Shown here piece by piece: positions 7,788 to 56,355 of a stretch of 64,000 nt of DNA. Position 1 is the stretch's first letter; every line of letters starts with the position of its first letter. The DNA is from an uncultured Clostridia bacterium. Its GTDB lineage: Bacteria; Bacillota; Clostridia; Christensenellales; UBA1242. A program made the position numbers and the translations under genes. A model generated the notes under the pieces. That model saw nothing but the letters and a program-made list of their open reading frames with translations, was not told where the DNA came from and searched no databases. The stretch is taken from assembly GCA_944362965.1 (NCBI GenBank), contig CALVTR010000004.1, positions 43,601 through 107,600 on the forward strand, written 5' to 3'.

Positions 7788-9065
7788 TTAATTTCTTGTA
7801 AATACATAGTATCCATCAGTAAGTGCACCCTGTGTGAAATTACTTGCAAGATAACTGCCCATTGTGATACTTTCATTCTCCACAATCGCCTGTGGCACAT
7901 AAACTGTATCAGCATAGTAAAGTATATAGCCACAAGAAGTTTGCGAAGTCACACTTGTATAAATATACTCATTTATAGTAACTGTTTCAAGACCATAGCA
8001 ACTTTCAAAAGCACTATCTCCTATACTTGTTACACTTGATGGGATTGCTATACTTGTTAAACTACTACAACCATAGAAAGCATTGTTCCCTATACTTGTC
8101 ACACTATCAGGAATTATTATGCTTGTTAAACTACCACAACCAAAGAAAGCAGAACTACTTATACTTTCCAAACTAAATTCATAAGGAAAAGTATCTGCTA
8201 TATAGATTGCCGATGGGATTACCAAATCTCCTATTACACTTGTATTACAACCCGATACACTTGCTATGCCTGTTGAAACTGTATAACGATATGTCAAATT
8301 ATTATTTGCTGTATCAAATATTGCATAATAGGTTGTTGGTGAATTCTCGGTGAAAGTGAAGGTATAGTCGGCAAGGGTTGATACAAGTTCTCCGTCTACA
8401 TCTAACCAACATAAGAAGACGGCATCCGCATTGCCTGTAAAATCTGCTTGCAAGGTGACTCTGCTCCCAACCATTGCATAGCCTTCGCTTTCAGCTGTGC
8501 CTAGTATTTCTCCAGTATCTGTTTGTCCTAGTGCTATGGTCTCAACCATTTGTGGCACATACTCTTCTATCGTGATTGTAATTCCATCTAAAGAGATATT
8601 GCCTGTTGTTCCGCTTGCTGATTGAATAGTCAGGGTTATTGTGCCTGAGATGTCTGCGGTTGTAACGTTTTCTATCGGAGTTTCAGATGCGGCTGCTATT
8701 GTTCCGCTTGTAGTTAGCGTCACTCCACTACCACCTGTGGCAGTTGCTTGATAGGCTGTCTGTGTGGTATTAACAAAGTCAAAATATACATTGACTGACC
8801 CGCTGCTTGATTGAACTGTGCCTAAGTTAAGGTCTATCGACTGATTTATGTGGCCCGGAATAAAATCGTCTATAGTTGTGGCGGCACCCGTTGGCTCTGT
8901 CTGCACACGTATATCTCTTATATACAAGCTTGTGTCGCCAATGTTAAACTCCACACTTCCCTTAAGATTTATTGTCTGCGTAGCAGCATACACTCCTATG
9001 ATTAGCACTCCTAACATAAGCATAAATAATGAAATACATGAAATTAATTTTATTTTTAATGACAT
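7788..9065 (-). CDS. Secreted/surface leucine-rich-repeat protein (BspA-type LRR), paralog 1
   Basis: 425 aa; TTAAGGAGG RBS; hydrophobic N-terminal signal MSLKIKLISCISLFMLMLGVLIIGVYAATQ; C-terminal 23-aa repeats IPDSVTSIGNNAFYGCSSLTSI. N-terminus and central region are homologous to 53005-54963. Confidence 0.85.
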   Translation of the reverse strand: MSLKIKLISCISLFMLMLGVLIIGVYAATQTINLKGSVEFNIGDTSLYIRDIRVQTEPTGAATTIDDFIPGHINQSIDLNLGTVQSSSGSVNVYFDFVNTTQTAYQATATGGSGVTLTTSGTIAAASETPIENVTTADISGTITLTIQSASGTTGNISLDGITITIEEYVPQMVETIALGQTDTGEILGTAESEGYAMVGSRVTLQADFTGNADAVFLCWLDVDGELVSTLADYTFTFTENSPTTYYAIFDTANNNLTYRYTVSTGIASVSGCNTSVIGDLVIPSAIYIADTFPYEFSLESISSSAFFGCGSLTSIIIPDSVTSIGNNAFYGCSSLTSIAIPSSVTSIGDSAFESCYGLETVTINEYIYTSVTSQTSCGYILYYADTVYVPQAIVENESITMGSYLASNFTQGALTDGYYVFTRN

Positions 9066-9149
9066 TCTATTAACCTCCTTAATTTATATAGTTTGTCTGA
9101 AGCAATTATTTTTATGTAAAATTTGTCTATTTTTGCATTTTACAACCAC

Positions 9150-9178
9150 ACTATAGCATATTTAAAAAAGTCAGTAAC
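9150..9178 (-). promoter_or_regulatory. Proximal extended -10 promoter candidate for LRR gene 1
   Basis: Minus strand reads GTTACT, 17 nt, TGCTATAGT. The same positions are conserved upstream of LRR gene 2 (GTGACA, 17 nt, TGCTATATT). Confidence 0.5.
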
Positions 9179-9488
9179 AGGGGTGACGGCACGATGGCAT
9201 CAAACCACGACCCGAATTTTTCAAGCCTGACGCTTGGCGGTTATCCGGCAGAGTGAGAATAAGAGATAAGCTATATCTCCGCTCTTAAGCCAAATGTTCG
9301 AAGGCTGTCCGATTAAGCGTATTGAAGTTTTAAACTCCATCTCCGCTCTCTAAGCCTAACGCTTGGCGATTGTCCGCGAGCTAGATGCTCGGCGTTTGTC
9401 CGGCAGAGTGACATGAAAGAATAGTCTTTATTCCCGCTCTCTTTAACCATATGTTTGACGGCTGTCTATGTGAGCGAGCTTTGCTGCA

Positions 9489-9581
9489 GGTGTGAGAAGG
9501 CATGTGCATTTTTAAAATGCACATGAAGGCAAAAGTCTTTGCCTTCTAAAAGGCTTGTCAGCCTTTTATGCCTTCTCACAC
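9489..9581. repeat. Three-hairpin unit A (outer 14-bp stem enclosing three hairpins)
   Basis: Outer GTGTGAGAAGGCAT / ATGCCTTCTCACAC. Hairpins: TGTGCATTTT/AAAATGCACA, GAAGGCAAA/TTTGCCTTC, AAAAGGCT/AGCCTTTT. Confidence 0.8.
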
Positions 9582-9631
9582 TCGCGGCGAAGCCGCTCGC
9601 GATGGACATAGTATATCCATCTTTTGCTATT

Positions 9632-9659
9632 AGTATACCCCCCCAGCAACCCTTGTCAA
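9632..9659 (-). promoter_or_regulatory. Promoter-like box with a homopolymer in the spacer (R1)
   Basis: Minus strand reads TTGACA (9654-9659), a 16-nt spacer containing G7 (C7 at 9638-9644 on plus), then TATACT (9632-9637). Confidence 0.45.
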
Positions 9660-9852
9660 CAAATTTTAAGCATTTTTTCAAAATTTTTTAAAAAATTTTA
9701 TTTTTTCGGATTTTTGGTTCAAAAGCGGAAATATAGTTTGTCTCTTATTCTCACCCTGCCGGATAGTCGCCAAGCGTTAGGCTTGCGGACAGTGATGCAA
9801 ACTAAGTTTGCTGTCGAACATTTGGTTCGCTGACAGTCTCCAAGCGTTAGAT

Positions 9853-9945
9853 TGCAAGCGAAAGGGTGATTTTTTGCTTCAGTAAAAAATCACAATAGGC
9901 AAATGCCTATCAAAAAACTCGCAAGAGTTTTTCCATTCGCTTGCA
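9853..9945. repeat. Three-hairpin unit B
   Basis: Outer TGCAAGCGAA / TTCGCTTGCA. Hairpins: GTGATTTTTT/AAAAAATCAC, ATAGGCA/TGCCTAT, AAAAACTC/GAGTTTTT. Confidence 0.8.
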
Positions 9946-10030
9946 TGTGGCAAAGAAACTCAATTTAAATACTTAAATATCTCTATTTATTTTAAGTGAA
10001 TAATAAAACAATAAACACTCAAAATAAAGT

Positions 10031-10405
10031 ATGCTTGACATAAAGTCAAAACTTGTTCTTAAAATATTGATAAAAGAATGTCCTTATGGCTCGTATAATA
10101 TTATAGAATCTAAGGATGTTATTTCTGCACTGCCAAGTAGATACAAAGTTGACATTGAGGGACTTGAAAATATCCTTATTTTTCTTGAACGACAAGAATA
10201 CATTTCAATCAAATACGATGATGATGGAGTGTATTGCCTATGTGTGCTACCTTTTGGATATGAAGTGCTTGAAAATGAGGCAAATAAAAAACGAGAAGAT
10301 AAAAAATCTCCTCGTCTTTGGTTTTATATTGTTTTTAGTCTTCTGGCAAGTTTTCTTGGTAGCTTTCTAGGAACAGTGATTGCACATATTCTAAACCTTC
10401 ACTGA
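10031..10405 (+). CDS. Small protein with a possible winged-helix N-terminal half and a C-terminal TM helix (paralog of 7096-7458)
   Basis: 124 aa; KLVLKILIKEC..IIESKDVISAL; basic linker KKREDKK; then LWFYIVFSLLASFLGSFLGTVIAHIL. No clear SD. The 3' end overlaps the radC 3' end by 71 nt (convergent). Confidence 0.5.
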   Translation: MLDIKSKLVLKILIKECPYGSYNIIESKDVISALPSRYKVDIEGLENILIFLERQEYISIKYDDDGVYCLCVLPFGYEVLENEANKKREDKKSPRLWFYIVFSLLASFLGSFLGTVIAHILNLH

Positions 10406-11113: not shown

Positions 11114-14100
11114 TCAATCTGTCGCATTTGCTTCACTAAGAAGCTTTGCGTAATTGGAACCAGTCCAACTCTCACCATCTTCATCCTTAGGGAATTGGGT
11201 TGCATAGTCACCTGTCAATGTATAATAATTTGAAAGAGTGCTATCGTTTTCAAACTGAGTGCTAAAACCAGTATAACTTTTAGATAGACTTTCGTCAGCT
11301 GAGAATAATAATACATTTCCTATGCTTTCATCATCTTCATTTGTTCCAAATGCTCCACCCCATTTCATGCCTGTATCAAATAGAGAAACTCTAGTCATCC
11401 TGTCTCTTCTCTTTGCACCTGAAAGAGCATTAATTCCATTTAGAGATAAATTCGACCCTTCTGCAGAATCATCAGTGCCTAATATAATTTTACCAGCATC
11501 ACCAGATTGTCCTGCAGCACCCGCTTCACCTCTATCAAAATCAACAACAGCATCTGAAATATATGTTATACGCTCACTGTAAGCTGTTCCATAAGAATTG
11601 TATGTAGAACCACCTGCTCCAGCATTTCCGCCATTGCCAGGTTTTAATATAGCACTATCATAAGCAATAACGAGATCGTCATTTCTAGAAATTATAATGT
11701 CTTTTCCGGCACTACCATTTCCGCCTTGACTTCCATCTATATTAATAGAAGAGCCATTAGAACCTTTTCTTCCATCAAGTCCATTGGAAGCTGATACAAA
11801 GCCATAATACGTTACATTTGCATTTATATTATCACCGAATAACGTGATATCACTTATTCCACTAGTATCATTGCCTGCATAATTTAGATATATGTTGTTT
11901 ACATTTATCGTGGATACAACAGACGCATAAATAGTTATATTTGTATCTGAACTTTCATTAGTATTAAAAGCAGAGCCTGTATAGTTGATAATTGCTGCTG
12001 ATGAATCTGTGTAGTTATTAGTGCTTCCATAGATTGCAATATTTGCAAGTTTTGAAAGCGAATCATTGTCTTCTCCTGACAGGAATAATGCATTTCCGTA
12101 TCCATCTGCAAGGAAATTGACATCCTTTATAAATGAGTTTATACCTTCTAAACTTTGGAATATAGGTGAATTATAGTAAGAAATATAGTAACCATTTCCA
12201 ATTATGTTTATAGATGCAGGCTTATTGAACCCACCATCAACTGTTGTAAAGGATATATCATCTTGCAAGATAATTGAGAATGGATCTTTTGTTGTAACGT
12301 CACCATCTATTCTTTCTGTTATAGTAGGACTTGTATCATTGCCAGCACTATTAGTTACAGTTATCGTTGCCAAAGAGATATTCTCGCCAGAAGGATTCAA
12401 ACTATTTAAATAAATTTGATACTCTTCGCCTATAATGATATAATTTTGGTTTTCTACAAAGCTGTCTGGAGCTGTTGTTACTTCAAATTTATCTAGTTCC
12501 ACACCAAAAGAGATCGATTCTATCTGATGGCTTGGTAAGGTTATACCACTCCATGTATAGTTGATTTCATTTATTGTTGATGGACGAGAACTATCAAATG
12601 TATATCCATCTTTTATAAATATATAATCATTATCTATTCCAAGAATATCAAAATCTGAAATGTAAGGCATCCACGAATTATTTAAGAAACTAGAAACAGT
12701 AAAATTACCTATATCACTAGCTGAAGAATAGATACTCGTTCCTAAAGTAATGTTATTAATAACTTCACCTTGAATTCTTATCGTCGTTCCGTCTTCTGTT
12801 TCAGTATTTGTATACACTTGTCTATGACTACTATTATAGTATCTATAATATGTATAATCATCAGATGCGTTTTGTTTTGCCATGCTAAACACAGGATTAT
12901 TATAATTATCATAGAACAACCATTGTTCAGAACCATTGTCACCGGTATTATGCGCTACAGTCACTAAACTTGATTCATCAGAATTTAAATAGTAAGATAT
13001 TGAATCTACTGTGATTGAGTCTCTATCTTCAGAAATTGTAGCATTTACTGTAAAGTCAAAACCAGAAGCATTGGTTAGTGCTATATGCACTGTTGACGAA
13101 TCACGTGCCGCTAATTCATAAACAGGACAAACATTAACTCCGATTGTCACACTGCTTCCACGAATTTCATATCGTGACATAGTATCAAAGGATTGAGTAT
13201 AATTTCCTGTTCCTGTTATTGTCACCGAACTCAAATTTGAATAGTTGCCAGCATCAGAGTCAACATAGAACTCAAGTCCTATTGTTTCATTTTCGTTTAA
13301 ATATCTAGAATAAAGTGTTACATTGATGTCATTTAAGCTTGTGTAACAATCTTCAGTATAAGATATATCATTATAGGTTCCATAATATACTCTTATTCCA
13401 TTTAAATAATATGACTGCAATGATGATGGATTGCTGTTTAAAATATCTGAATTGAATCTAAGTTGATTTCCATCTACTACAAAATATCCACTATCATCAT
13501 TTAAACTATAATTCTTAACAGCCGTCGTGCTTGTTGTAGCAAGTCCCATTATAGCACCTGAGCTATTATATATGTTGAAAGATATGTTGTTGCGATCTAT
13601 AACTGAAGAGAATAGATCAGGTAAATTTGTAACATTATCAAAATCATTAGTAATAGCAGTGTAATTATTTAAAATTGTTTCCAACGAGCTTCTATTTAGA
13701 CTAATACTGCCAGTTCCGTTGTAGGTATATATTAGTTCTCTGCTACTTGAATTTAACTGCACTGTAAATTCATTGCCATTTATGTCTATAGTATTATACG
13801 ATGACGATTTAATCAAACCACGTGATTGTGAGTAGCCTAAAATAGGCGTGTCGTCTTCGTCTAAAATTAGAGTGTTTTCGCTGTATCTATTAAGGTTTAC
13901 TATGAACTGTGCATCTACTTGTTCAGTAGTATACGAACTTGAAAGACTAGCATAATCAGTAATGTCGCCATTTGTTATAGTTGGTGAGCCAGATGCTGAA
14001 ACCAACAGATTGTTAGTTAGGTAGTTTCTTAGAGTTGTAGCCAGAGAGCTAGCTGAAGAACTGCTGAGATCTAAATTGCTAAATCTGAATGTTAGAACGT

Positions 14101-17100
14101 CACCTGTTGCACTTAAAGTATAGCTATATGCCGATCCACTGACTGTTATTGTGCCGCTTCTAAGAGGTGACCAACCACTAGAAGAATAAGTTGCAAGGAT
14201 ATCTCCTGACCCTGACAGTGTCACATTATAAGAACTATATCCTTCCCCAGTTAAGTCAAATTCATTGGTTATATCTACTTCAATATCACTTGAATAAGTT
14301 AAGTTGGATTCAATACTACTATACCAAGAACTTAGCTCATCACCATAAGATATTGATGCATTACCATCGGCAGTGCCGCCACCTATATTACTTAAGGTTG
14401 TCTCTCCATTTCCAGATATAGAACCAAAAGAAATATCTTTTGCTGTTTCTTCTCCTTCTATCGACAGAGAATAGGTTTGATTATTAAACATGTCTATAAT
14501 TTTTGACACATTTTCTTGATAATCTTCTGCGCTTCTTCCAACTATTGAATTATTAACTAGATCTAAGTTGTTTACAGAATATCTTTCAGTTTCATCAACT
14601 ACAAGTGTTGCATTTGGAATATAAACCAACATTCCATTCTCTTCATCAACGCCGAAGAACACGAAATTTTCATTTTCTTCATCGCCGAGAACTGCTGGAG
14701 CCCCAGTAAATGCACCTTGTTTATATCCTTTTATAACTAAGTCGTAATCATTCCCAAAACCATCAAATAGACGATATCCACGAACTTCTTGATAATTGTC
14801 TAAAACATCAATCTGTATTCCAATAGCATTGTCATTTATGTAGTAGTATTTAGTATTTGACATATTGAATGTGACAGTTTGATTGTAATTAAAGTGGATA
14901 GTATAACTTATATTGCCACTAAAAGGTGTGAAGCTATAGCAAGTAAAGTTCAAACCGTCTTCAGTTACAGAGTTTACATATGTTATCAAACTATTTCCGT
15001 TACTTGTAGCAGAAACAGAGTAGTTGCTTGTATCATTTGTGTAAGGAATATTGCCTAGCGACGCTCCTTCTACTCTATAGACATACACTCCCGCATTGAA
15101 AATGGTATTTGCGTTGTTTGTGCTTACAAGATAATATTCTTGTCCATCTATTGTTGTAATTTGATCTTCACCTTCTGTTTGTTGACTGCGAGTGCTATTT
15201 TTTATTGTAGTCCCATCATAAGGGTTGCTTACTGAATTTGAAACATTGCTAATAAAGGAATAAGAATCACTATAACTATTTACATAATCCATGTAGATAG
15301 TCGTAGCATCTACAGAAACAAATTCAGAATTTGTGGCTCTATAATTATTTACAGGTCTGAAATTATCATCATTTCGCCAATTTTCATCATCATAGCCAAA
15401 CGGAGTAAAGTTACCCCACCAGCCATTATTAGCATAATCTATGTCAACAACATAATCTACCCTTACAGTAAAGCTATTTGGCAAACCAAAACTATTATAT
15501 GACTGAACATAAACTTCTGCTGAGCTGCTAGGAGCTTGAATACTGCTTGTAAAGCTTATTCTTGTTAAGAAATGACGGCTAAAAACTAAATGAAATAACC
15601 AAACACGACCATAAGTAGTATAAGTTCTTTCTCTTAAATAAGTTCCGCTTATCATATCTGACAATTCCCAACTTGCGATAGGGTCTTCAAAATCTAGCAT
15701 TGAGCCATTCATGTAGATGGATGATTCCGTTGCGTCGCGAGCTACACAATCCTTTATAGAGCCACTATTAAGATAACCTATTGCATATGCCCAAACATTA
15801 CGGTTGCTTGTTTGTTTAAGCTCAAGAGTATCTTCATTCCATCTATATTCAGTTGTTGGACTTGTGCCTAGAGCTTCGATAGAGCCTTCATTATAACATG
15901 CTGTAATCTCCGCCGTTTCTGCCATAGCAATTATACCTGCGGCATAAGAACGTCCCCTTACAACCCCACGACCATAGGTCTCGCCATTCTCTTTATTGCC
16001 TGATTTGATTGGTCCGGCATTGTATGAACCTGTTATTGAAAGGCTAGTTGCATCGCTATAACCTGCAACACCACCAACATAATAGTCACCTAAAGTTGTT
16101 GAAAGTGCTGAAGCTGATGCATAGTTTGCCATAACTGAAGTTGCGTTATAACTATAGTTGATTGCGTTATTATCGCCTACTATATGACCTACAATACCAC
16201 CGACATAATAGTTGCCTGTTGAACTTGTGCTACTAATATCATAATATACATTGATTGTGCCATAATTTGAGCTGTAGTTTATGGTTGTGTTTTCCATGCG
16301 TCCAACTAAACCACCAACTTCAATATTATCCGTATCTTTTTCTGTTTCATTGATTGTGACTGTGACAAGATTTGTTACAGTTGAGATAGTAGAATTATAT
16401 ACTTCATTGGCAAGTCCGCCAAGAACGGTATAATCTGCGTCAGTTGGATCGTCACCTTCATTGAGACCTAACACACCAAGTGCTGCAGTATTTGTTGAAC
16501 CTGAGATTGTCATATTTGAAATCTCAGCATTATAGATTGTTGTTGCAAGAACGCCTTTTTGTGAAACTGCGACATCTGTAAGTCTAAGATTTCTAACTTG
16601 AACTGTCTCGCCATCTTTTGTTCCTAAATCTTTGAAGAATGAGTTGTTGAGATTTGATAATGTGTTTTCATTGCCATCAAAATCGACAAATGCTTCGTTC
16701 ATCACTAAGCTTTCCCATTCTGCCCAATCTGTGAGTGAGATATCAATGCTATACCAGAGAACGAAATGTCCAACATTTACTTCTTCTGCTTCAGCTGTGC
16801 CATCTCCGGTTTCTCCATCTGGATTATCTGTTACAGGAGAAAGAACAGTTGTTATGCTTGACATCTTTGTAAGGATGCCTGCATGTGGAACAATATAGTA
16901 GAAGGTCTCTTCTGTTGAGCCATCAGTTCCTGCATCAGTTGAAGTGTATGTGCTTGGTCTTGTGTTATTTGGAAGTCTTGTGTAGTCATTTGATGTTACA
17001 TAATAATCATAAGTGCCTTCTTCGCCTTCACGTTGAAGCTCGCCTGCTGTTGCAAAGGATGATACTTTGGTAAATCCATATTTCAATGTTGGATAACCAT

Positions 17101-20100
17101 AGTTGAAATCATATTCGCCTTTATCAAAGAAGATTGTTGAAAGTAGTGAGCTTTCGTCAAGGACAGCATTTGAAAGCGTTGATGTGTCTTTGCGTATTAC
17201 ACTATCCGTTGCCGATTCACTTTCTATAATCAAGTCAGTTTCTAGTGCGTTATAGTCGTAATAAGAGTTTGTAAGTAAGTAGGTATCACTATCACTTCCA
17301 TCACTAAACACGCCAACTGTGCCACTTGCCGCACTTGTTCTTGTATAGTCGTCAAGCGTCATTTTAACGATAGAATATGTGTTATCTACCATTGTGTGAG
17401 AAGCACCTGAGGTCACTGCATATAGATTAGCACTGATATATGATGAAATGCTTCCTGTAGAGTAAGAATATAGAAGGAATTTTGTTGTCACGTCTGATGA
17501 GGCATTATCAAAGCCTGCAAGTCCATATACACTTCCATTTGCACCTGCTCTATAGATAATATCAAGTGACGTTGTGGCATATACAATCTTTCCTGATTGA
17601 ACATTGCCAACAAGTCCGGCAACAGTCATTGCATCAGTTCCACCTACGCTCAACTCACCTTTGACTTGAACTGCGTATACTGTTGCGTTGTCTGTCATTG
17701 TGTTTGCAAGACCTGCAAATGTTCTTTCTCCATCGTCGTTATTTGCATTGACGTCAACATTTACAACAAGACCAGAGACATAAGAGAAGCCACTTAATGT
17801 ATCTATAAGAGACTTTTGATCTGTGCTGCTATTGCTGTCAAGTGAATAATCGATTTCATAGCCATCGCCTATTATAGCCACATTCTTAAGGTTATTTCTT
17901 TGATATGTTGTTGTGCCAATGTTTGTGTTATGACCAATATTTAACTGGCTTGTAAACGCCGAGCTGTTTGTGTCAATCACATAGTATGCCATACCATTTG
18001 TTAGAGTTGGAGTTTGAGCCTCTCCTGTTGTGGTTGCACTCAAAACAATAGGGCTAAGTTTTTGACCTGCAACATGACCTGTTTCGCTTCCACTTCGCTC
18101 GTAGAGATTATAACTATTAAATAGACTTACAAGGTTTGTGTTTCCATCTGCGAATGTATTTAAACTTGTCTTTTCGCCATTATAGCCATATCCATCAGCA
18201 AGATATGGTAAATAATATCCAACGTCTGTGCCTAAGTCATCGATAGTAAGAGTGACGAGTGAACTATAATAGTTGTCTTGAATAGTTGAATCTTCAGACG
18301 GCAATGTTCCAAATAGTGCATTATTTGTGCTGTCATCTACTTCAACATACCTTACATTATGGCTTGTTACCAATGAATAGTTAAGTGTGGCTTGAATTTT
18401 ATATGGGTTTTGTCCTTCAGTGCCTGAAGAAATTTCGCCAAGAACCCCACCAAATATATAACTTCCAAGTTCACTTAGAGTATTTCTACCTGCAACATAT
18501 TCATCGTATTCAACAAATACGTCGCCATAGTTATAGTTGTTAGTTATAGTTACGTTGACTTGTTCTGCATTGTAACTGCTTGTGCTTGAGAGTAATGCAC
18601 CAACAGTTCCGCCTGCAACAACTTCTTCTGAAGTTGAACCAAATACTTTTAGTGCGCCGCCAAATACACCATTTTGAATAGTTAAACTATCGTTAACGTT
18701 AGAGAAGTATACCCCGCCGACTATTCCACCAAAGTTGATAGAATGGGCGTTAGAGAACACGGCTCCGATATAATTTATAGTATTTTGAGAAGTGTTGCCA
18801 ATTTGCGATTTAGATGCAAGTGCTGGAGAATCTGGGGCTGTTACATCTTGAGAAGATACTATGCTTCCTATCATTCCACCAACATTTGCTTCGGTGTAGT
18901 CTGTGCTGCTTCCTGTTTGAGAAACAACAATGTTTGCTTTTGAAACAATATTATTTGTGACTACTAGCGTGTCTGTTGCATTGGCATCTGTTGCACTGAC
19001 TGCCGAGAACTTACCTATCAATGAGCCAACATTGAGCTCTTTGTTTTGCGGCGTGCTTATTCTGATAAATTCGCCATTATCATTGAGTTTTGTAAATACT
19101 GATGCACTGCCGCTGAATGTAAATCTAGCATCTGTATGTCCAACAAGAACGCCGACATTAGCATTGCCATTTATTGCAACCATACGCTTTGCATATTGAG
19201 CGGTGTCATCTGAATAAGAAATAAAGCTATCTTTTGTAAATTCGTCTGAAGTAGAGCTTCCCCTTACATAAGCTTCAACTGCAAAGTTTATTGTGTCTAT
19301 ATTTCTTATATTTGTTGCATTTTGACTTAACTCACCCGCAAAGCCACCTGCATATAAGTTGTTTATAGATGCACCAGACTGAACATAAAGTCCACCATCA
19401 AGGACAGAGTTATTTAGGTTGACACTATCTATTGTCGTTGAGTTTTGACCGAATACAAGACCTGCATAGACATTTTCAGTTACTCTTACGCCCGATAAAA
19501 TTCTTAAGTCAAGTTCAAGAGAAATTGAAGCACCGCCATAGTTGCTGATATTATTTACACCTTGATTATTGCCAATTACGCCACCCATATGGAGATTGCT
19601 TATCTCAAGATTTGAAGTTACAATTATACCTTGATTTGTGTCATTTACTGATGATGATGTTCCTGATTTAGTTATATTGTTTATAGTAACTCTTGCACTC
19701 AAGGCAATATCATCTCTTGTTGTTAAACCAAAGTATCCACCTATATTAACTTCGCCTAAACTGCGTCTACTAGAAGAGCCGCCACTTAGCGTTATTAAAT
19801 CGCCATTGAACTCATATTCTATTCCTTCAATTCTTAGGATTGATATTGAGCTACGTTGATAAAGCGTTCCGGCTAAGAAGCCTATATTTACGTTAGGCAT
19901 ATTGCTGTTTGTTGCAGGAGCAGTGATATTTACAATCGAGCTTCCGCTGCCTATTCGACTTGAAGTGATTGTTATATTTGATAGGGTTGAACTTGTGATT
20001 ACTGGAGCAATAATACCAAAATTATAATCACTTGAGCTATCTAAAATTGTAGATGTTACACGAGAATTTATTTCAATTCTTAGGTTTGAAAGTGTTGCTT

Positions 20101-23100
20101 CTGAAAGTCCACCAACAGAGAATAAGCCTGCATTGTTATTGCCGTTGGCATTTATCGTTATATTAGAGCTATTGCCTGTGTAATATTCAATTTCTACATT
20201 ATTCATATAGAAACCAGCACCTGTTGAATCTATAAAACTCTCTGAAGATATAATTCTTACTCTTTCGCCTTGCCTATCGCCACTTGTTACAATATATTCT
20301 TCACTACCTATAATCGAACCTGAGAAACCAGAGATAGGCTGAATCAAACCGCTGCTAAGATAAGGTCTAAGGTCAATATCTTCATAACTATCATCACTAT
20401 CAGGAGATGTTCTTCCTCTGACAACTACGGTCAAATCATTATTTGAAGTCTGCAATCTTTCAAATACAGAGACAATACTTTCTTCATAAGCATCAAGGTA
20501 GATATAATTTGAAGAGCGTTGATATCTTATTGATGGGAAAAGTTCGTCAGTGTCATGAACCCAGTGAACAGCTTCCCATGCACCAGAACTTAAGAATGCC
20601 TGTTGAGTATATGTATGCCCAACGGTTGAATTTGTAAAGTTTGTTGGAGAGGCTATAGCATAGACAAGGGAATCTTCTTCTGTGCTGATTGAGCCATTTA
20701 CGTCACCAAACAAATTCATTGTTATTCTGAAACTATTGAATGAATAGCTGTCATAGAAGGCAACTGTTGGAATTAAACCAAGTGCTGTGCCTGTGCTATT
20801 GGTTGAAGTAAGTTGAATAATTTCAATATATGATGAGTAGTTATCTATAGTTAAATCTATATCATTATTGTTTGCAATATCACTAGCTTCGTTGAAGGCA
20901 GAGCCTAAAATAAGGTTTGTCTTGTATGTATATGAGATATTCATTGCTTGAGTTACAGGCAAATACTCTTCTGTTTGGTAATCATAGTTAGCAATCTCGT
21001 TGACAGAGTTTACAGCAAGGAGTGCAATTCTGTTGCCAGAGCCTATTGATACACCAATTATACCGCCTGCAGTCATGATACTGCTATTGCCATCTTGTCT
21101 TGCACGGACATCACCTGACGCATATACTTCATTTATAAAGTATTTTGTGTATGTGCCGTCTGTAAGTAATTCCGTTGAAACTTGATATGTAGATGTGCCA
21201 GATAAATCAATGCCACCAATCACACCACCTGCAAAGTCTGCCGATGGGCTTGTTACATTCAATTTCGAATAAGATATTTCAAGTTTGCCAGAGCCAACAT
21301 AGCCCGCAATTCCACCAATATATAACTGAGAATAGCTGCTATTTGCAAGATAGAAGATATCAAGGGCTCCCCTTTCTGCTGTGGTGTCTCCGTTATAGAA
21401 GGATTGAATACTATTTTCAATATTAGACTGGGTTGAATCATCATAAGCTGAATAAATTCTGCTTAAAGCACCAAATGATTGTCCAACAACGCCACCTGCA
21501 AAATACTTAGTTGCTATGATATGTGACTGGTTCTCAGCTGTCGTGCCTGTGATATTTATTCCTGCATCACGAACGTTTGTCTGGAAGCCTGTGAGACCAA
21601 AGATACCGCCGGCTACCTGCCCTTGAACGTATACAGTTCCGCTTACTCTGATATTATTTATTGAATAATCTTCTGCTTGATTGATATTGAAGTTTCTTGA
21701 AGTTGTTGAGAAGTTATCTGCAAAGCCAAGGACAGAACCCGCATAAGAATAATTGCTTAGTTGTGTTATAACTGAAGATGAGATTGTTGTGTTATAGTTT
21801 AAGCTGTTTCTGATATCATTGCGTATTCCATTTAATTTTTCAATGTCAAAGTATGCATTTTGAGCTGATTGAGAATATCTATCAGCAACAACATAAGGGT
21901 CAGTTACAACAATATTTTTAATAACACTATTGCCAAATGAGAAGCCTACAAGTCCACCTACAAAGTTTAGACCTGTGACTTGAGAGTTTTCGTTGAATGT
22001 TATTTCAATATTTACAATAATAGAGTCCTTAATGTATCCAGCAAGACCGCCCACCATAACAGCGTCACCAGCTACAACTTGATTTATTTCAAGATTTAAG
22101 TTGCTTATAAGTGGAACAGAGCCGTTTCTGCTCTCAACAGAAGCAAATAATCCATAAGCCACATCGCTTTCTTCTGAGGCTATTGATATATTTGAAATTG
22201 TAAATCCATTGCCGTATAGTCTTCCTGCAAAAGCTTTTGTTGTTGATGGAAGAATTATAGATTCACTTACAGTTGAAAGGTCAATATCAGCAACCATTCT
22301 ATAGCTGCCCCATACAACACTGCTATTATAGTTTTGAGATATAGGAGTTGATGACGAATTGCCCATAACTTCTACAAAATCTTGAGCACTTGTTATTAAT
22401 ATTGGGTTGTTGCTTGAGCCAAGAGCCGTGTCTATTTCACGAGAAGAATCTGTGAACTGCAAGATTGCATATCTAAAGATATATTCACCCTGCTCATTTT
22501 CTGCTGTCACTCCTTCATAGCCTGAATTTTCATCAAGATAGTAGGCATATCTATGTGAATATGACTGTAGGTTTGGCTCTATAAGAGTTACACCTTCTTC
22601 TGTTATTTGCCATACGCCATCACTTTCGCCATCTGCAACTGCAAAGCCGTAGAAGTATGAAGATACAGCTGGGTTTGGTATTAGAATTGCACCTGTGCCA
22701 TATTGTGACTCTACTGTGCCATCGTCTGACATTTCACCACTATAACGTTTATTAAAGAAGTAGCAATTTGTATATGTTCCATTAGCAAGCAAGTCACCAT
22801 TTTCGTCAACACCTGAGAAGTTCATTTGCGTTGCTCTTGAGTTTGCAATTTGTGATGCTGAATAGCATGCCTCTATCGTGCCTGTGTTTTCGTATACAAA
22901 ACCTGATGCAAAGTATACACGCACTGTATCAGTTGAGTTTGCAATTAAAATATTTGAATAGCTGTTTTGAATTGTGCCTAAGTTGTTGTTTACAAAGCCA
23001 GCAATTACGCCAAGTCTTGATTTTAGTGAAGAGCCTTCAAATGCATAGATTGAATAACTGCTATCATCTGCGAGACTGTCATCGTTTGGCACACCTTCAA

Positions 23101-45380: not shown

Positions 45381-45821
45381 CTACTCATCTATTCCACCAC
45401 CAGTATTTCCTCCTGCTCCATTCTCATTATATATGATATCTATGCTTATAGCAACATCGCTATCTATGTTGTATACGCTACTTGTCATTGAAAGGGTATG
45501 AGGAAGAATACCCCCATCTTCAGTAATACCACCTCCTGAACTCTCAAATTCATATTGAGTCTCTTGGTATATTGCAGGCTCAAATGTTATGACAACATAT
45601 TCTGCATATGGATGACCATGTGGACCTCCTTCGCCTTCTACAAAAAATTGAATATTTGTGACACCATTCAATATAATATGTGAAGAAGTTACTTCTATTC
45701 TTTCTCCGCTATTTATACTATAAAATATTTTTGCTTTATATCGCTTAATATCGTCTATTGCGTCAATAACGTCTATTTTGTCAGTTCCACTTTTATTTTT
45801 CCATCCACACGCTCTCTTCAC
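45381..45821 (-). CDS. Hypothetical protein (146 aa, GTG start)
   Basis: ORF with AAAGGTGA just upstream of a GTG start. Gly-rich C-terminus. Its first roughly 25 codons are nucleotide-homologous to the non-coding W modules in R2/R3, so the true start and coding status are uncertain. Confidence 0.45.
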   Translation of the reverse strand: MKRACGWKNKSGTDKIDVIDAIDDIKRYKAKIFYSINSGERIEVTSSHIILNGVTNIQFFVEGEGGPHGHPYAEYVVITFEPAIYQETQYEFESSGGGITEDGGILPHTLSMTSSVYNIDSDVAISIDIIYNENGAGGNTGGGIDE

Positions 45822-46005
45822 TTTTCACCTTTCACTCTTCACTCCCGCTTAGCGGTTTGATTATCTGTTTTTTATCGACAAATATATCTATAACGTCGAA
45901 TTTATCAGTTCCTTGAGAGCGGAGATAAAATTTATTTTTTAAAAACACTCAATCGGACAATCGTCAAACATTTGGTTTGAAGAGCGGAGATGTAGGTTGG
46001 AGAAT
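45822..46005. repeat. Partial modular repeat block R3
   Basis: Palindrome CCGCTTAGCGG (45845-45855), a W module (45870-45912), and two inverse M units with AGAGCGG at 45916 and 45981 (65-bp spacing). Strong similarity to 55851-55960. Confidence 0.8.
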
Positions 46006-53004: not shown

Positions 53005-54963
53005 TTAATTCTTAAACCAATAATATTGACAATAAGTTGTTTTCAAATAAGTTGCTGCAGTTGTCGAATTAGATAAATCAACTGTGATTGCTGTTAAGTC
53101 TGAACCACTTATTGAAGAAGAATATCCCCACCCATCAGGATCATCAAAAGTTACATTAGTAAGATTACTGCAACCATCGAAAGTAGCACTACCTATACTT
53201 GTCACACTGCCTGGGATTGTTATATTTGTTAAGTTACTGCAATTATAGAAAGCTCGAGCGTCTATACTTGTCACACTGTCTGGGATTGTTATACTTGTTA
53301 AACTACTGCAATCTTCGAAAGTTCGAGCGCCTATACGTGTTACCCTGTCTGGGATTGTTATACTTGTTAAATTACTGCAACCCTGGAAAGCCATAGAAGC
53401 TATACTTGTCACACTATCTGGAATAGTTATACTTGTTAAACTACTGCAGCCTTCGAAAGATTGAGAGCCTATACTTGTCACACTATCTGGAATAGTTATA
53501 CTTTCTAAATTACTGCAAATAAAGAAAGCAGAATCATCTATTATTGTCACACCTTCTAGGATTGTTATACTTGTTAAACTACTGCATTGATAGAAAGCAC
53601 GATAACCTATAGCTATGCAAGTATCTTTTATTGTATAATTTGTTATTGTTGTTGGTGCATCAACAAGATAGATATATTTGGTATTATCATTCCCTAAATA
53701 ACTTACTTCTTCTTCATCTACATTATATTCTAAACTATCGCAATCTTCGAAAGCTCTACCACCTATACTTGTCACACTAGTAGGGATTGTTATACTTGTT
53801 AAATTACTGCAACCAGAGAAAGCATACCTACCTATACTTGTCACTCCTTCTGGGATTTCTATACTTGTTAAACTACTGCAACCTCGGAAAGCAGCTTCAA
53901 GTATACTTGTCACTCCTTCTGGGATTTCTATACTTGTTAAACTACTGCAATTATAGAAAGCATAAGTTCCTATACTTGTCACTCCTTCTGGGATTGTGAT
54001 ACTTTCTAAATTACTGCACCCCTCAAAAGCAGAACCACCTATACTTGTCACGCTAAATTCATAAGGTGAAGTGACTGACCTATATATTGCTGATGGGATT
54101 GTTACTTCAGTTGCACTTGTATTACAATCTGATACACTTGCTGTGCCTGATGAAGTGGTATAACTATATTTTAAATTACTATTAGCTGTTTCAAATATCG
54201 CATAATAGGTTGTTGGTGATTCTTCGGTGAAGGTGAAGGTGTAGTCTAGCGAATATGAAACCAAATCTTCTGCTTCTAAGCTTGTTTTCCAACCTAAGAA
54301 GTCGGCATCAACGCCTACGAAATCGGCTGATATCGTAACTTCGTCGCCATACTCTGCAAATGCACCTTGTGCTTGTCCTAAGGTTTCGTCAGATGATATT
54401 GCTATAATATCTGGCTGAGCTTCGTCTATTGTGACTGTTATCTCACTTAAATCTATTCTAGCAGAGTTTGGTGCCATGATTGTTAAGGTTAGTGTGCCAT
54501 CTGCTTGTGTTGTTGCAGGGTCAAATTCTTTAAAGCCGTCTTCATCTGCGTCGGTTAGGTCATTTACGCCAATTATCCCGCCATGTCTTTCTGACACACC
54601 ATCATTTGCAAGAGCTCCTAAATCTACACTTTCTATTGACCACAGAATATCCGTTGCATTGATTATATCAAAATACAAGATAAAAGAACCGTGACCATTC
54701 TCTTCTGTCTCTAAAGACGTTAAGTCCATATTAAAGTTTCCATTTATGTAACCCGGTGTGAAGCTATCAACAACAATCTCTTCACCACCCGCTTCTTGAT
54801 ACCTGACTTCTTTAACAAACAAGCTTCTATCAGGCACGACAAAGCTTAAATTGCCTTGTATGCTTATTTGCTGCTGCGTCGCTGCATATACCCCAAGTAT
54901 CAACGCCCCTAGCATAAGCATAAATAGTGAAATTGTGGATATCAATTTTACCTTTAAACTCAT
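53005..54963 (-). CDS. Secreted/surface leucine-rich-repeat protein (BspA-type LRR), paralog 2
   Basis: 652 aa; signal MSLKVKLISTISLFMLMLGALILGVYAATQ; about 11 copies of the 23-aa repeat ITIPDSVTSIG..AF.GCSSLTS; homologous to 7788-9065. Confidence 0.85.
   Translation of the reverse strand: MSLKVKLISTISLFMLMLGALILGVYAATQQQISIQGNLSFVVPDRSLFVKEVRYQEAGGEEIVVDSFTPGYINGNFNMDLTSLETEENGHGSFILYFDIINATDILWSIESVDLGALANDGVSERHGGIIGVNDLTDADEDGFKEFDPATTQADGTLTLTIMAPNSARIDLSEITVTIDEAQPDIIAISSDETLGQAQGAFAEYGDEVTISADFVGVDADFLGWKTSLEAEDLVSYSLDYTFTFTEESPTTYYAIFETANSNLKYSYTTSSGTASVSDCNTSATEVTIPSAIYRSVTSPYEFSVTSIGGSAFEGCSNLESITIPEGVTSIGTYAFYNCSSLTSIEIPEGVTSILEAAFRGCSSLTSIEIPEGVTSIGRYAFSGCSNLTSITIPTSVTSIGGRAFEDCDSLEYNVDEEEVSYLGNDNTKYIYLVDAPTTITNYTIKDTCIAIGYRAFYQCSSLTSITILEGVTIIDDSAFFICSNLESITIPDSVTSIGSQSFEGCSSLTSITIPDSVTSIASMAFQGCSNLTSITIPDRVTRIGARTFEDCSSLTSITIPDSVTSIDARAFYNCSNLTNITIPGSVTSIGSATFDGCSNLTNVTFDDPDGWGYSSSISGSDLTAITVDLSNSTTAATYLKTTYCQYYWFKN
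53150..54100 (-). repeat. Tandem 69-bp (23-codon) LRR coding repeats
   Basis: ACTTGTCACAC(T/A)..GGGATTGTTATACTTGTTAAA(C/T)TACTGCA recurs about every 69 nt. This also produces antisense repeat-artefact ORFs in the track. Confidence 0.85.
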
Positions 54964-55061
54964 ATTACCATATTCTCCTTTTAATTTTGAGTTTTTTCTT
55001 TAGTTTGTTAAAATACAATGTTTTTATGTAAATTTTGTCAATTTTTGTATTTTACAGCCTT

Positions 55062-55090
55062 AATATAGCACTTTTTAAAAGTCTTGTCAC
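55062..55090 (-). promoter_or_regulatory. Proximal extended -10 promoter candidate for LRR gene 2
   Basis: Minus strand reads GTGACA, 17 nt, TGCTATATT. Positionally homologous to 9150-9178. Confidence 0.5.
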
Positions 55091-55533
55091 AGGGGTGACG
55101 GCACGATGCCGTCAAATCACGACCCGAATTTTTCAAGCCTGCTGTTCGACGATTGTCCGATTAAGAGTGTCTAAGTTTTAAACTACATCTCCGCTCTCTA
55201 AGCCTAACGCTTGGCGGTTATACGGCAGAGTGAGAATAAGAGATAAGCTATGTCTCCGCTCTTAAGCCAAATGTTTGACGGCTGTCCGGCAAACTTAGTT
55301 TGCATCACTGTCCGATAAAGTGAATATAAGAAACAAACTTTATCTCCGCTCTCTAAGCCTAACGCTTGGCGACTATCCGGCAGAGTAAGTTGAAAAAATA
55401 AACTTTGTCGCCGCTCTCAAACCTTACGTTTGGCGATTGTCCGCGAGCCAGATGCTCGGCGACTGTCCCTGAGCTAATTGAAAGCACAAACCTTATCTAC
55501 CATGTCTTTGCTTGCGGAGCGAGCGTTGCCGCA

Positions 55534-55628
55534 GGTGCGAGAAGGCATAAAGGCTGACAAGCCTTTTGGAAGGCAAAAAGTTTTTGCCTTCTTGTGCATT
55601 TTGAAAAAATGCACATGCCTTCTCACAC
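55534..55628. repeat. Three-hairpin unit E (interior inverted relative to unit A)
   Basis: Outer GGTGCGAGAAGGCAT / ATGCCTTCTCACAC. The interior (55549-55614) matches the reverse complement of 9504-9567 with only a few substitutions and indels. Confidence 0.85.
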
Positions 55629-55678
55629 TCGCGGCGAAGCCGCTCGCGATGGACATAGTATGTCCATCTTTTGCTATT

Positions 55679-55708
55679 AGTATACTCCCCCCCCGCAACC
55701 CTTGTCAA
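55679..55708 (-). promoter_or_regulatory. Promoter-like box with a homopolymer in the spacer (R2)
   Basis: Minus strand reads TTGACA (55703-55708), an 18-nt spacer containing G8 (C8 at 55687-55694 on plus), then TATACT (55679-55684). Confidence 0.45.
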
Positions 55709-56142
55709 CAAATTTTAAGCATTTTTTAAAAAAATTTTTATTTTTTTTGAATTTTTGCGGATTTTTGGTTTGAGAGCGGAAATATAGTTTATGTTTTAGG
55801 GTTGCTCTATCGGATAGTCGTCGAACATTTGGTTCGGTGCCTTAGGCACTTTTTATCGACAAGTGTATCTTTAACGCTGAGTTTATCAGTTCCATGAGAG
55901 CGGGGATAAAGTTTATACTCGTAACTCATCCTGCCGGACAATCGCCAAGCGTTAGGCTTGGTGGCTTAGCCACATTTTGTCGTCTAGTGCGTCCATAACG
56001 TCGAGTTTTTCAGTTCCAGCTTAGCCACTTCCTTTTGATAATTTTTCCTATCTCCACTTTATATGAATAACTTTTCATAGCTATAATTTCCTTGTATAAC
56101 CCCTTTCTTTTTCACTTCAGCTTATAATTTGTTTTTCCGCCG

Positions 56143-56242
56143 CAGGCAAGCGAATGGGTGATTTTTTAACAAAAAATCACAATAGGCAAAACTAGTTTTG
56201 CCTATCAAAAAACTCTTACGAGTTTTTTCATTCGCTTGCCTG
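56143..56242. repeat. Three-hairpin unit F
   Basis: Outer CAGGCAAGCGAATG / CATTCGCTTGCCTG (extendable to about 23 bp). Hairpins: GTGATTTTTT/AAAAAATCAC, ATAGGCAAAAC/GTTTTGCCTAT, AAAAAACTC/GAGTTTTTT. Confidence 0.8.
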
Positions 56243-56317
56243 TGGCGAAGAAAATTTACATTATGTTACTCGAGCAATCTAAAATAAAACCCTAAAAATA
56301 TCCGCATATTGATATAC

Positions 56318-56355
56318 AAAAAAAGCATCTAAGGAAAACCTTAAATGCTTTTTTT
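56318..56355 (-). terminator. Bidirectional hairpin terminator after rpoZ
   Basis: A7, stem GCATCTAAGG, loop AAAA, stem CCTTAAATGC (1 mismatch), T7. Confidence 0.6.

What the first reader, a model, noticed from the sequence alone, without database searches (positions are those of the whole stretch)
9632..9659. Homopolymeric C/G tract inside the spacer of a TTGACA/TATACT promoter-like box: 7 in R1, 8 in R2
On the minus strand R1 reads TTGACA-AGGGTTGCT-G7-TATACT, a 16-nt spacer. R2 (55679-55708) reads TTGACA-AGGGTTGC-G8-AG-TATACT, an 18-nt spacer. Both hexamers are near-consensus and both spacers are one nucleotide away from the 17-nt optimum. A mononucleotide run between -35 and -10 is the classic slipped-strand phase-variation layout seen in Neisseria and Mycoplasma surface-antigen promoters. 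A transcript from this box would run through the three-hairpin core and the direct M units toward the LRR gene, which also has its own proximal extended -10 promoter.
Basis: partly seen in the sequence, partly recalled or inferred. Interest (0 to 1): 0.65.

Follow-up and report, generated by a model that had tools for sequence, protein, structure and literature searches.

The report
Poly-G tract inside surface-protein gene promoters
An uncultured chicken-gut Clostridia bacterium drives a family of secreted leucine-rich-repeat proteins from a shared, transcriptionally active promoter with a slippage-prone run of about eight G's between its two recognition boxes; the layout matches the random expression switches of Neisseria and Mycoplasma, but switching itself is not yet shown.

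Summary
On the minus strand R1 reads TTGACA-AGGGTTGCT-G7-TATACT (spacer 16) and R2 reads TTGACA-AGGGTTGC-G8-AG-TATACT (spacer 18). These are the only G/C runs of 6 or more in the 64-kb window.

The box behaves as a real promoter. In four metatranscriptome runs, RNA contigs cover LRR gene 2, the M units, the core and the 5' hairpin. They stop 13-28 nt downstream of the predicted +1, with zero depth upstream. DNA-like runs cover the upstream region evenly.

The box recurs, otherwise almost unchanged, in front of paralogous surface-protein genes. A 49%-identical relative keeps TTGACA, a G8 run and a 16-nt spacer although its other spacer bases and its -10 differ.

All length variation sits at the tract and its junction with the -10. 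R2 orthologues carry G8 (spacer 16), G8AG (18), G9AG (19) and G6 (12, low coverage). G8 versus G9 is the only difference in 4.55 kb between two assemblies.

The R1/R2 "7 versus 8" difference is not slippage. It is a G-to-T substitution plus an AG insertion.

Within-population switching and dependence of expression on tract length could not be tested, because only contigs were available.

Verdict: a new member of the promoter-spacer homopolymer class (porA, vlp), probably a contingency promoter.

The parts
9654..9659 (-). R1 -35 hexamer TTGACA
   Evidence: Nearly invariant across the 10 aligned copies; L052 and L037 read TTGACG.
9638..9653 (-). R1 16-nt spacer AGGGTTGC-T-G7. The G7 is C7 on the + strand at 9638-9644. 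The T at 9645 interrupts what is G8 in other strains.
   Evidence: The R1 orthologue L025 has G8. Runs X1-X4 show A>C at 9645, in whole or in part.
9632..9637 (-). R1 -10 hexamer TATACT. The predicted +1 is near 9625.
   Evidence: The +1 position is inferred from the usual 7-nt distance and from the RNA result at R2.
9660..9705 (-). R1 A/T-tract block upstream of the -35 (UP-element-like), conserved between copies
   Evidence: Alignment. An UP-element function is inferred, not tested.
9601..9621 (-). R1 5'-proximal hairpin GATGGATAT-ACT-ATGTCCATC, starting about 4 nt after the predicted +1
   Evidence: Fold. Covariation count: 5 of 9 pairs change on both sides, 0 of 500 shuffles reach the observed score.
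9470..9600 (-). R1 four-way-junction leader core: an outer stem plus three hairpins. The inner segment is inverted relative to R2.
   Evidence: z = -9.6.
7788..9065 (-). LRR gene 1: signal peptide, shared N-terminal domain, BspA-type LRR_5
55703..55708 (-). R2 -35 hexamer TTGACA
55685..55702 (-). R2 18-nt spacer AGGGTTGC-G8-AG. The G8 is C8 on the + strand at 55687-55694. The AG is at 55685-55686.
   Evidence: Orthologues: G9AG in L016, G8 without AG in L054, and G8AG in L015 and in contigs of X4, X29 and X30.
55679..55684 (-). R2 -10 hexamer TATACT. The predicted +1 is near 55672.
   Evidence: RNA contigs end at 55644-55659 and none crosses the box.
55709..55755 (-). R2 A/T-tract block upstream of the -35
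   Evidence: Alignment.
55648..55668 (-). R2 5'-proximal hairpin. The 5' limit of RNA coverage lies in its loop or just downstream of it.
55517..55647 (-). R2 four-way-junction leader core, transcribed
54964..55516 (-). R2 direct M units and proximal region, transcribed as part of the long leader. Their number varies between alleles.
   Evidence: continuous RNA contigs and joints that skip units. In L015 this stretch is absent.
53005..54963 (-). LRR gene 2 (652 aa, LRR_5), expressed in gut metatranscriptomes

Best explanation
The box is the sigma-A-type promoter of a family of secreted surface-protein genes. The family shares an N-terminal domain and carries LRR_5 or PF19789 C-terminal parts.

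A portable cassette precedes each gene:
- A/T tracts.
- TTGACA.
- A short fixed half-spacer.
- A run of about eight G's that abuts the -10.
- TATACT.
- A covarying hairpin that starts about 4 nt after +1.
- A palindromic four-way-junction leader.

Shown:
- Transcription starts just downstream of the -10 and runs into the LRR gene.
- The G run is retained across diverged promoters in a 36% G+C genome.
- All length change in the promoter is concentrated at the run and its junction with the -10.
- One G8/G9 difference is the only change in 4.55 kb between two assemblies.

Inferred:
- Slipped-strand mispairing at the run (plus occasional small junction indels) changes the -35/-10 spacing.
- That raises or lowers transcription of each family member independently and heritably, giving a mixed population of surface-protein profiles.
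- G-to-T, G-to-A or G-to-C interruptions (R1 in this window, L027, L029) slow switching.
- The 5' hairpin most likely protects the mRNA end from 5'-dependent decay.
For: Promoter activity:
- four metatranscriptome runs have RNA contigs over 54600-55659 at depth 7-85. All end at 55644-55659, and depth is zero over 55662-56133 in all four runs (one 47-nt piece at depth 2 near 56143-56189 in X26, then none to 56350). The predicted +1 is about 55672.
- one RNA contig joins the core (55517-55635) to the coding sequence (54819-55161).
- DNA-like runs cover the box and the upstream region evenly, so the boundary is not a mapping artefact.
- in L015, L032 and L052 the order is box, hairpin, core, ribosome-binding site, ATG, with no other promoter in between.
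- other promoters in the window are canonical TTGACA-N16-18-TATAAT.

Conservation and variation of the tract:
- these are the only G/C runs of 6 or more in 64 kb.
- everything in the box except the tract region is nearly invariant across 10 copies.
- L045-L047 (49% identity in the protein's N-terminal domain) keep TTGACA, G8 and spacer 16, although the half-spacer (AAAAAGGC) and the -10 (TAAAAT) differ.
- L016 differs from the window by G8 to G9 only, over 4,549 nt, while 19 A/T runs of 6 or more are unchanged.
- R2 orthologues have spacers of 12, 16, 18 and 19.
- several tract-length variants occur per metagenome, and contigs break inside the tract.

Other:
- the hairpin covaries.
- the expressed allele's six leader differences all match L054, whose promoter is G8 with spacer 16.
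- Known precedent: porA has a poly-G run between -35 and -10 that sets expression level (PMC3639595).
Against: - No raw reads were available, only Logan contigs. Within-population heterogeneity at a single locus could not be separated from paralogues and co-resident strains.
- No sample gave both tract length and expression.
- G8 is strongly modal. Three samples share G8 at the L045 locus, two at L052/L053, and five observations share G8AG at R2. The consensus is therefore fairly stable.
- Only one clean one-step slippage difference was found between orthologues (L016). A single G8/G9 call could be an assembly or sequencing error.
- The 16-versus-18 classes differ by AG or GA insertions, not by G count.
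- The 12-nt spacer in L037 comes from a contig with 4x coverage.
- The RNA 5' limit is 13-28 nt short of the predicted +1. It rests on contig ends, not on 5'-end mapping.
Confidence: 0.58

Rival explanations
1. Static promoter. The box is a real promoter, but the G run is a fixed sequence feature, for example one that tunes promoter strength or DNA shape next to the -10, or a regulator site. The few length differences would then be neutral mutations or assembly noise, with no role as a switch.
For: - G8 with spacer 16 is the commonest state in diverged promoters and is identical in several samples.
- The expressed allele type carries it.
- Interrupted tracts (TG7, GGAGGGGG, GCGGGGG) persist in front of intact genes.
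Against: - The promoter's length variation is concentrated exactly at the run and at no other position.
- G8 versus G9 is the sole difference in 4.55 kb.
- R2 orthologues span spacers 12 to 19.
- No known sigma-A element is a G run at -13 to -20 (my own knowledge).
- An uninterrupted G8 in a 36% G+C genome is itself highly mutable, whatever it is selected for.
Confidence: 0.25
2. Alternative sigma factor. With the G run abutting it, the -10 reads GGGTATACTA. That fits the forespore sigma-F type -10 pattern GGnnAnAHTR as I recall it. The genes could then be sporulation-phase surface or spore proteins, and the G's would be recognition bases rather than a spacer.
For: - Sequence match by eye only, in the boxes.
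- Relatives carry a spoIIAA-spoIIAB-sigF-like operon, so the lineage sporulates.
Against: - A perfect sigma-A -35 TTGACA sits at canonical spacing, with upstream A/T tracts, and is conserved in every copy.
- No sigma-F-like -35 is present at the expected distance.
- R2, L032 and an X9 copy have AG or A between the run and the -10, which breaks the GGn register.
- Expression is appreciable in bulk gut metatranscriptomes.
Confidence: 0.07
3. Artefact or non-promoter. The tract-length differences are homopolymer sequencing or assembly errors, and the box is just part of a mobile or palindromic repeat with no transcriptional role.
For: - Assemblies often break in this region; L007 starts inside the tract.
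- L037 has 4x coverage.
- The core belongs to a dispersed repeat family, according to earlier notes.
Against: - The RNA boundary lies at the box in four runs.
- Paralogue differences include substitutions and dinucleotide insertions that errors do not explain.
- The same G8AG was recovered independently in five data sets.
- The box is always oriented toward a gene with a ribosome-binding site.
Confidence: 0.05

Closest known systems
Neisseria meningitidis porA (and opc) promoter: a poly-G (or poly-C) run between -35 and -10 (PMC3639595)
   Same: - A G homopolymer lies inside the spacer of a sigma-70-type promoter of a surface-protein gene.
- Tract length differs between strains.
- The expected effect is graded expression through -35/-10 spacing.
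   Different: - Here the run is 7-9 G's, not 9-11, and it directly abuts the -10.
- The host is a Gram-positive, spore-forming gut commensal lineage.
- The same cassette serves many paralogous genes.
- Switching and the effect on expression are not demonstrated.
Mycoplasma hyorhinis vlp lipoprotein genes: a poly-A run in the promoter spacer of each member of a gene family (my own knowledge: Yogev, Citti, Wise and colleagues, 1990s; the Vlp system is cited in PMC11868660)
   Same: A multigene family of surface proteins in which every member has its own copy of a conserved promoter carrying a homopolymer in the spacer. That allows combinatorial, independent variation of each member.
   Different: - Poly-G rather than poly-A.
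- The genes are dispersed around the chromosome rather than clustered.
- They carry long structured leaders (5' hairpin plus four-way junction).
- There is no phenotypic evidence yet.
Invertible-promoter switches of gut bacteria (Clostridioides difficile cwpV, flgB and pdcB; Bacteroides polysaccharide loci; reviewed in PMC11868660)
   Same: They give stochastic control of surface structures in gut anaerobes. A short segment flanked by inverted repeats is inverted between R1 and R2 in the leader here.
   Different: - The inverted 64-66-bp segment lies downstream of the promoter and does not contain it.
- The promoter points at the gene in all copies seen.
- The proposed mechanism here is repeat slippage, not site-specific recombination.
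Bifidobacterium breve pilus loci: intragenic poly-G slippage (PMC9187656)
   Same: A Gram-positive gut commensal that uses a G run to vary a surface structure.
   Different: That tract lies inside a coding sequence and works as a frameshift ON/OFF switch. Here the tract is in the promoter spacer.

Membership tests
Promoter-spacer homopolymer phase variation (porA / opc / vlp type) | [quoted passage not shown] | tested here: met
   G7 at R1 and G8 at R2. Uninterrupted runs of 6-9 G's, or interrupted equivalents, occur in the other copies.
Promoter-spacer homopolymer phase variation (porA / opc / vlp type) | The hexamers are the functional promoter: transcripts start just downstream of the -10 | tested here: met
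   RNA contigs of four metatranscriptomes end 13-28 nt after the predicted +1, and none covers the box or the region just upstream. DNA-like runs cover both. The resolution is that of RNA-seq contigs, not of 5'-end mapping.
Promoter-spacer homopolymer phase variation (porA / opc / vlp type) | Tract length differs between closely related strains | tested here: met
   G8 versus G9 is the only difference in 4.55 kb. R2 orthologues have spacers of 12, 16, 18 and 19. This rests on few observations.
Promoter-spacer homopolymer phase variation (porA / opc / vlp type) | High-frequency, reversible length change within a clonal population | not testable with these tools
   Only Logan contigs were served. 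Several tract variants occur per run, but they cannot be assigned to one locus or strain because the flanks are shared by paralogues.
Promoter-spacer homopolymer phase variation (porA / opc / vlp type) | Expression level depends on tract length | not tested
   No sample gave both DNA tract length and RNA. The only hint is that the expressed allele has the leader of L054, whose assembled promoter is G8 with spacer 16.
Promoter-spacer homopolymer phase variation (porA / opc / vlp type) | The controlled gene encodes a surface or host-interaction protein | tested here: met
   N-terminal signal sequence, BspA-type LRR_5 repeats, and a family of 120 or more clusters sharing the N-terminal domain. 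One copy precedes a 47-aa gene with only weak, sub-threshold Pfam hits.
Invertible-promoter switch (fimS / C. difficile / Bacteroides type) | The promoter lies inside a segment bounded by inverted repeats and is found in both orientations | tested here: not met
   The inverted segment is the inner part of the leader core, downstream of +1. The box has the same orientation toward the gene in all copies.
Known cis-regulatory RNA or riboswitch (Rfam) | A match to a curated covariance model | tested here: not met
   No hit at gathering score in the window apart from tRNAs. Only chance-level hits with E above 0.5 over 9050-10050.
Forespore sigma-F/G-type promoter | A -10 of the type GGnnAnAHTR with a matching -35 at about 15 nt | tested here: inconclusive
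   The -10 pattern is matched by eye in copies where the run abuts TATACT or TAAAAT. It is not matched where AG or A intervenes. No matching -35 was seen. The consensus is recalled from memory, not from a tool.

The most novel reading that the evidence does not exclude
A spore-forming gut commensal of the Clostridia runs a genome-wide, combinatorial contingency system. A portable expression cassette (A/T tracts, TTGACA, a G8 run, the -10, a 5' stabiliser hairpin and a palindromic leader) sits in front of a dozen or more dispersed surface-protein genes. Slippage at each G run independently tunes each gene. Point interruptions and AG/GA junction insertions act as evolutionary locks or resets. 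This would be the first promoter-spacer repeat switch family described in Clostridia, where the known phase variation works by DNA inversion.
Probability: 0.4. Interest if true: 0.7.

Novelty: new member of a known kind. Interest (0 to 1): 0.55.

Why it matters
Repeat-mediated promoter switches are textbook devices of mucosal pathogens such as Neisseria, Haemophilus and Mycoplasma. In gut Firmicutes, the phase variation described so far (Clostridioides difficile, in the review PMC11868660) works by invertible DNA.

A conserved poly-G promoter cassette in front of a whole family of BspA-type LRR surface proteins would show that abundant, uncultured commensals use the same bet-hedging logic. The likely targets are host or phage interactions.

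It would also give a simple sequence signature (TTGACA, a short half-spacer, G7-9, then the -10) for finding variable surface genes in metagenomes.

There is a practical warning too. MAG assemblies break or mis-call at these sites, so the presence or absence of these genes, and tract lengths taken from consensus assemblies, should be read with care.

Tried and rejected
I could not count the cassettes in the window's own genome or look for mutS and mutL.

**Searches that gave little or nothing**
- A genome-contig scan with the 19-mer ATTTGTTGACAAGGGTTGC returned only four chance hits in unrelated phyla.
- Exact-protein look-ups of both window LRR proteins, the 47-aa protein from L027, and two neighbouring ORFs found nothing. 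The likely cause is a different choice of start codon.

**Read-level test of heterogeneity**
- All runs are kept as Logan contigs. These break at the tract, and their 31-mer flanks are shared by paralogues. therefore show several tract variants per run but cannot show heterogeneity at one locus.

**Linking spacer length to expression**
- RNA runs laid on L032 (G9A, spacer 18) gave no coverage over the first ~560 nt of the coding region; low coverage over its 3' part came from diverged relatives. The organism's depth was also low.
- RNA runs laid on L029 (spacer 15) showed that the expressed allele is a mosaic. It matches L029 only near the start codon, not in the leader.
- No conclusion follows from either.

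**Readings rejected**
- Invertible-promoter reading: the flipped segment is downstream of the start site.
- Riboswitch or other known RNA: no Rfam match.
- A start site upstream of the tract (reiterative transcription at the G run): no RNA contig contains the box.
- Integron attC or CRISPR readings of the M units: considered by eye and dropped, because the units are direct repeats whose 'spacers' recur.

Full report
**1. What is in the sequence**

On the minus strand, R1 reads TTGACA (9659-9654), then AGGGTTGCT and G7 (the G7 is C7 on the + strand at 9638-9644), then TATACT (9637-9632). The spacer is 16 nt.

R2 reads TTGACA (55708-55703), then AGGGTTGC, G8 (55687-55694) and AG, then TATACT (55684-55679). 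The spacer is 18 nt.

Both boxes match the sigma-70 consensus at 11 of 12 positions. The two tracts are the only G/C homopolymers of 6 or more in the 64-kb window, which has 35.7% G+C.

R1 (about 9066-10030) and R2 (about 54964-56330) are direct paralogous copies of one control block. Each lies upstream of a minus-strand gene for a secreted BspA-type LRR protein (7788-9065 and 53005-54963).

Other promoters in the window are canonical TTGACA/TATAAT pairs with 16-18-nt spacers, most often 17. Sigma-A rules therefore appear to apply in this organism.

**2. Anatomy of the cassette**

Ten copies from the window and from other assemblies were aligned. They share these parts, in order:
- A/T tracts.
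- AATGCTTAAAATTTG.
- TTGACA.
- AGGGTTGC.
- The G run.
- TATACTAATAGCA.
- A 9-bp hairpin that starts about 4 nt after the predicted +1.

The hairpin keeps its pairing through changes on both sides of the stem. Five of 9 pairs show such changes, and 0 of 500 shuffles reach the observed score.

Next comes a four-way-junction core of about 130 nt, with folding z-scores of -9.6 and -9.4. Its inner three-hairpin segment is inverted between R1 and R2.

In the window, arrays of about 65-nt M units separate the core from the gene. In other alleles (L015, L052, L032) the core is followed directly by a ribosome-binding site and the ATG. In those alleles the box is the only available promoter.

No Rfam family matches the leader.

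**3. Is it a promoter?**

Four metatranscriptome runs (X25, X26, X28, X31) were laid on 54600-56350.
- RNA contigs cover LRR gene 2, the M units, the core and the hairpin.
- They end at 55659, 55644, 55657 and 55658.
- Depth is zero over 55662-56133 in all four runs. Beyond that, one 47-nt piece at depth 2 lies near 56143-56189 in X26, and nothing else reaches 56350.
- No loose ends continue upstream of the contig ends.

The +1 expected 7 nt after TATACT is about 55672. The contigs therefore stop 13-28 nt short of it. My own understanding is that standard RNA-seq libraries usually lose roughly that much at a transcript's 5' end, especially in front of a stable hairpin.

One RNA contig joins the core (55517-55635) to the coding sequence (54819-55161).

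Four runs labelled 'METAGENOMIC RNA-Seq' behave as DNA. They cover the box and the upstream region evenly. The boundary in the true RNA runs is therefore not a mapping artefact.

RNA depth does not step up at the proximal promoter-like site near 55062-55090.

LRR gene 1 and the R1-type core orientation were not detected in these RNA runs. Whether those strains carry that gene is unknown. Some assemblies (L005, L006) lack 8771-9944 altogether.

**4. Is the tract variable?**

*Between paralogues and relatives*:

| Copy | Tract region | Spacer (nt) |
|---|---|---|
| R1, window | TG7 | 16 |
| L025 (R1 orthologue) | G8 | 16 |
| L027 | GGAGGGGG | 16 |
| L029 | GCGGGGG | 15 |
| L032 | G9A | 18 |
| L052 and L053 (82% identity in the protein's N-terminal domain) | TTGACG-TGGGTTGC-G8-TATACT | 16 |
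| L045, L046, L047 (49% identity in the protein's N-terminal domain) | TTGACA-AAAAAGGC-G8-TAAAAT | 16 |

The L045-type copy is the most telling. Its half-spacer and its -10 have diverged, yet TTGACA, the G8 run abutting the -10 and the 16-nt spacing are kept. This points to selection on the run itself. A third relative, P0023, has no tract.

*At the R2 orthologous locus:*
- G8AG in the window, in L015 and in contigs of X4, X29 and X30.
- G9AG in L016.
- G8 without AG in L054 (spacer 16).
- G6 in L037 (spacer 12; this contig has only 4x coverage).

L016 and the window differ at one position in 4,549 nt, and that position is the extra G. Nineteen A/T runs of 6-8 nt in the same stretch are identical.

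*In metagenome contig sets:* each run holds several tract-length variants, and contigs often end inside the tract. Further cassette copies also appear. One has a perfect TATAAT (X9). One on a 6-kb contig in X1 has a net length that implies a 17-nt spacer.

*What was not possible:* all runs are stored as contigs, and the 31-mer flanks of the tract are shared by paralogues. Heterogeneity within one strain at one locus, which is the defining property of phase variation, could therefore not be tested.

**5.

- R1's G7 is a G8 with one G-to-T change. L025 has G8, and runs X1-X4 carry G at 9645, in whole or in part.
- R2's longer spacer comes from an AG dinucleotide that is polymorphic among R2 orthologues.
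- The R1/R2 contrast is therefore not a slippage difference.
- The modal state across the family is G8 with a 16-nt spacer, not 17.
- The allele expressed in the RNA runs carries exactly the six leader substitutions of L054, whose assembled promoter is G8 with spacer 16. This hints that 16 is an ON state. The DNA and RNA come from different samples, so it is only a hint.
- Laying the RNA runs on L032 and L029 did not resolve the relation between spacer length and expression.

**6. Mechanism proposed**

Shown:
- An active promoter.
- A conserved G run in its spacer.
- Length variation confined to that run and its junction with the -10.
- One single-G difference between otherwise identical contigs.

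Inferred:
- Replication slippage changes the -35/-10 spacing, and with it the transcription of each family member independently.
- Interruptions of the run slow the switching.
- The 5' hairpin stabilises the mRNA, as described for 5'-terminal stem-loops in Bacillus subtilis and E. coli (review PMC3997798).

Rivals:
- A static promoter element (0.25).
- An alternative-sigma -10 created by the G's (0.07).
- An artefact or non-promoter (0.05).

**7. Comparison with known systems**

The layout matches porA of Neisseria meningitidis, which has a poly-G run between -35 and -10 and shows graded expression with 11, 10 or 9 G's (PMC3639595). At the level of a gene family it matches the vlp genes of Mycoplasma hyorhinis (my own knowledge).

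It is not an invertible-promoter switch of the kind known in Clostridioides difficile (PMC11868660). It is also not an intragenic frameshift tract like that of Bifidobacterium breve (PMC9187656).

Of the defining features of the porA/vlp class, four are met here: position of the tract, promoter function, variation between strains, and a surface-protein product. Clonal reversible switching and dependence of expression on tract length remain untested.

I know of no published promoter-spacer repeat switch in Clostridia, and one literature search returned none. I therefore file this as a new member of a known kind.

Earlier AI notes of this scan on other pieces of the same genome reached the same reading. 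I treat them as leads, not as support.

**8. Limits**

- The genome-contig scan gave only chance hits.
- The number of orthologous comparisons is small.

Noticed in passing
window 9489-9581 versus 55537-55613: The inner three-hairpin segment of the leader core, bounded by inverted repeats of about 14 nt (GTGTGAGAAGGCAT / ATGCCTTCTCACAC), is inverted between R1 and R2. The loop of one hairpin reads GACA in one copy and TGTC in the other. It lies downstream of the start site and does not carry the promoter.
   Followed up: partly
L005 and L006 versus window 8771-9944: Two assemblies join window position 9945 directly to about 8770. They lack all of R1 and the 5' end of LRR gene 1. This is either a deletion allele or a repeat-mediated misassembly.
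   Followed up: partly
L027:700-990 (minus strand): The same promoter cassette (GGAGGGGG, spacer 16) precedes a 47-aa protein. It has only weak, sub-threshold Pfam hits (DUF6290, RepB-RCR_reg) and is not an LRR protein. An M unit is inserted inside the outer stem of its leader core.
   Followed up: partly
window 53005-54963 and 7788-9065; proteins P0001-P0120: The first 200 residues of the LRR proteins form a domain shared by at least 120 protein clusters. Their C-terminal parts are either LRR_5 repeats or PF19789, so this is a modular surface-protein family.
   Followed up: no
window 8700-9040: LRR gene 1 has no RNA coverage in the four metatranscriptomes that express the LRR gene 2 allele. 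The gene is either silent or absent in those strains.
   Followed up: partly
window 45912-45998: A third locus carries two M units in inverse orientation, between the genes at 45381-45821 and 46099-46761, without the promoter box.
   Followed up: no
L045:1084-1150: In the diverged cassette (TTGACA-AAAAAGGC-G8-TAAAAT), the -10 is followed at once by the hairpin GGGGTATCAAAAA...TTTTTGATACCCC and then ATTTT. This could be a 5' stabiliser or an attenuator-like terminator.
   Followed up: no
window 9639, 9662, 9725 and 56164-56176: Contigs of many independent assemblies end at these points; L007 starts inside the C tract at 9639. R1 and R2 are systematic assembly breakpoints for this organism.
   Followed up: partly
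window 11114-30769: A single 6551-aa open reading frame lies on the minus strand next to radC. It is present at 6551-6560 aa in other assemblies (L009, L012, L014).
   Followed up: no
L032:3262 (RNA run X28): One low-depth RNA contig (3.9x) runs through a box variant (…TTGCTTGACGTGGTTTGC…). This indicates occasional read-through from upstream at some paralogue, or trace DNA in the library.
   Followed up: no
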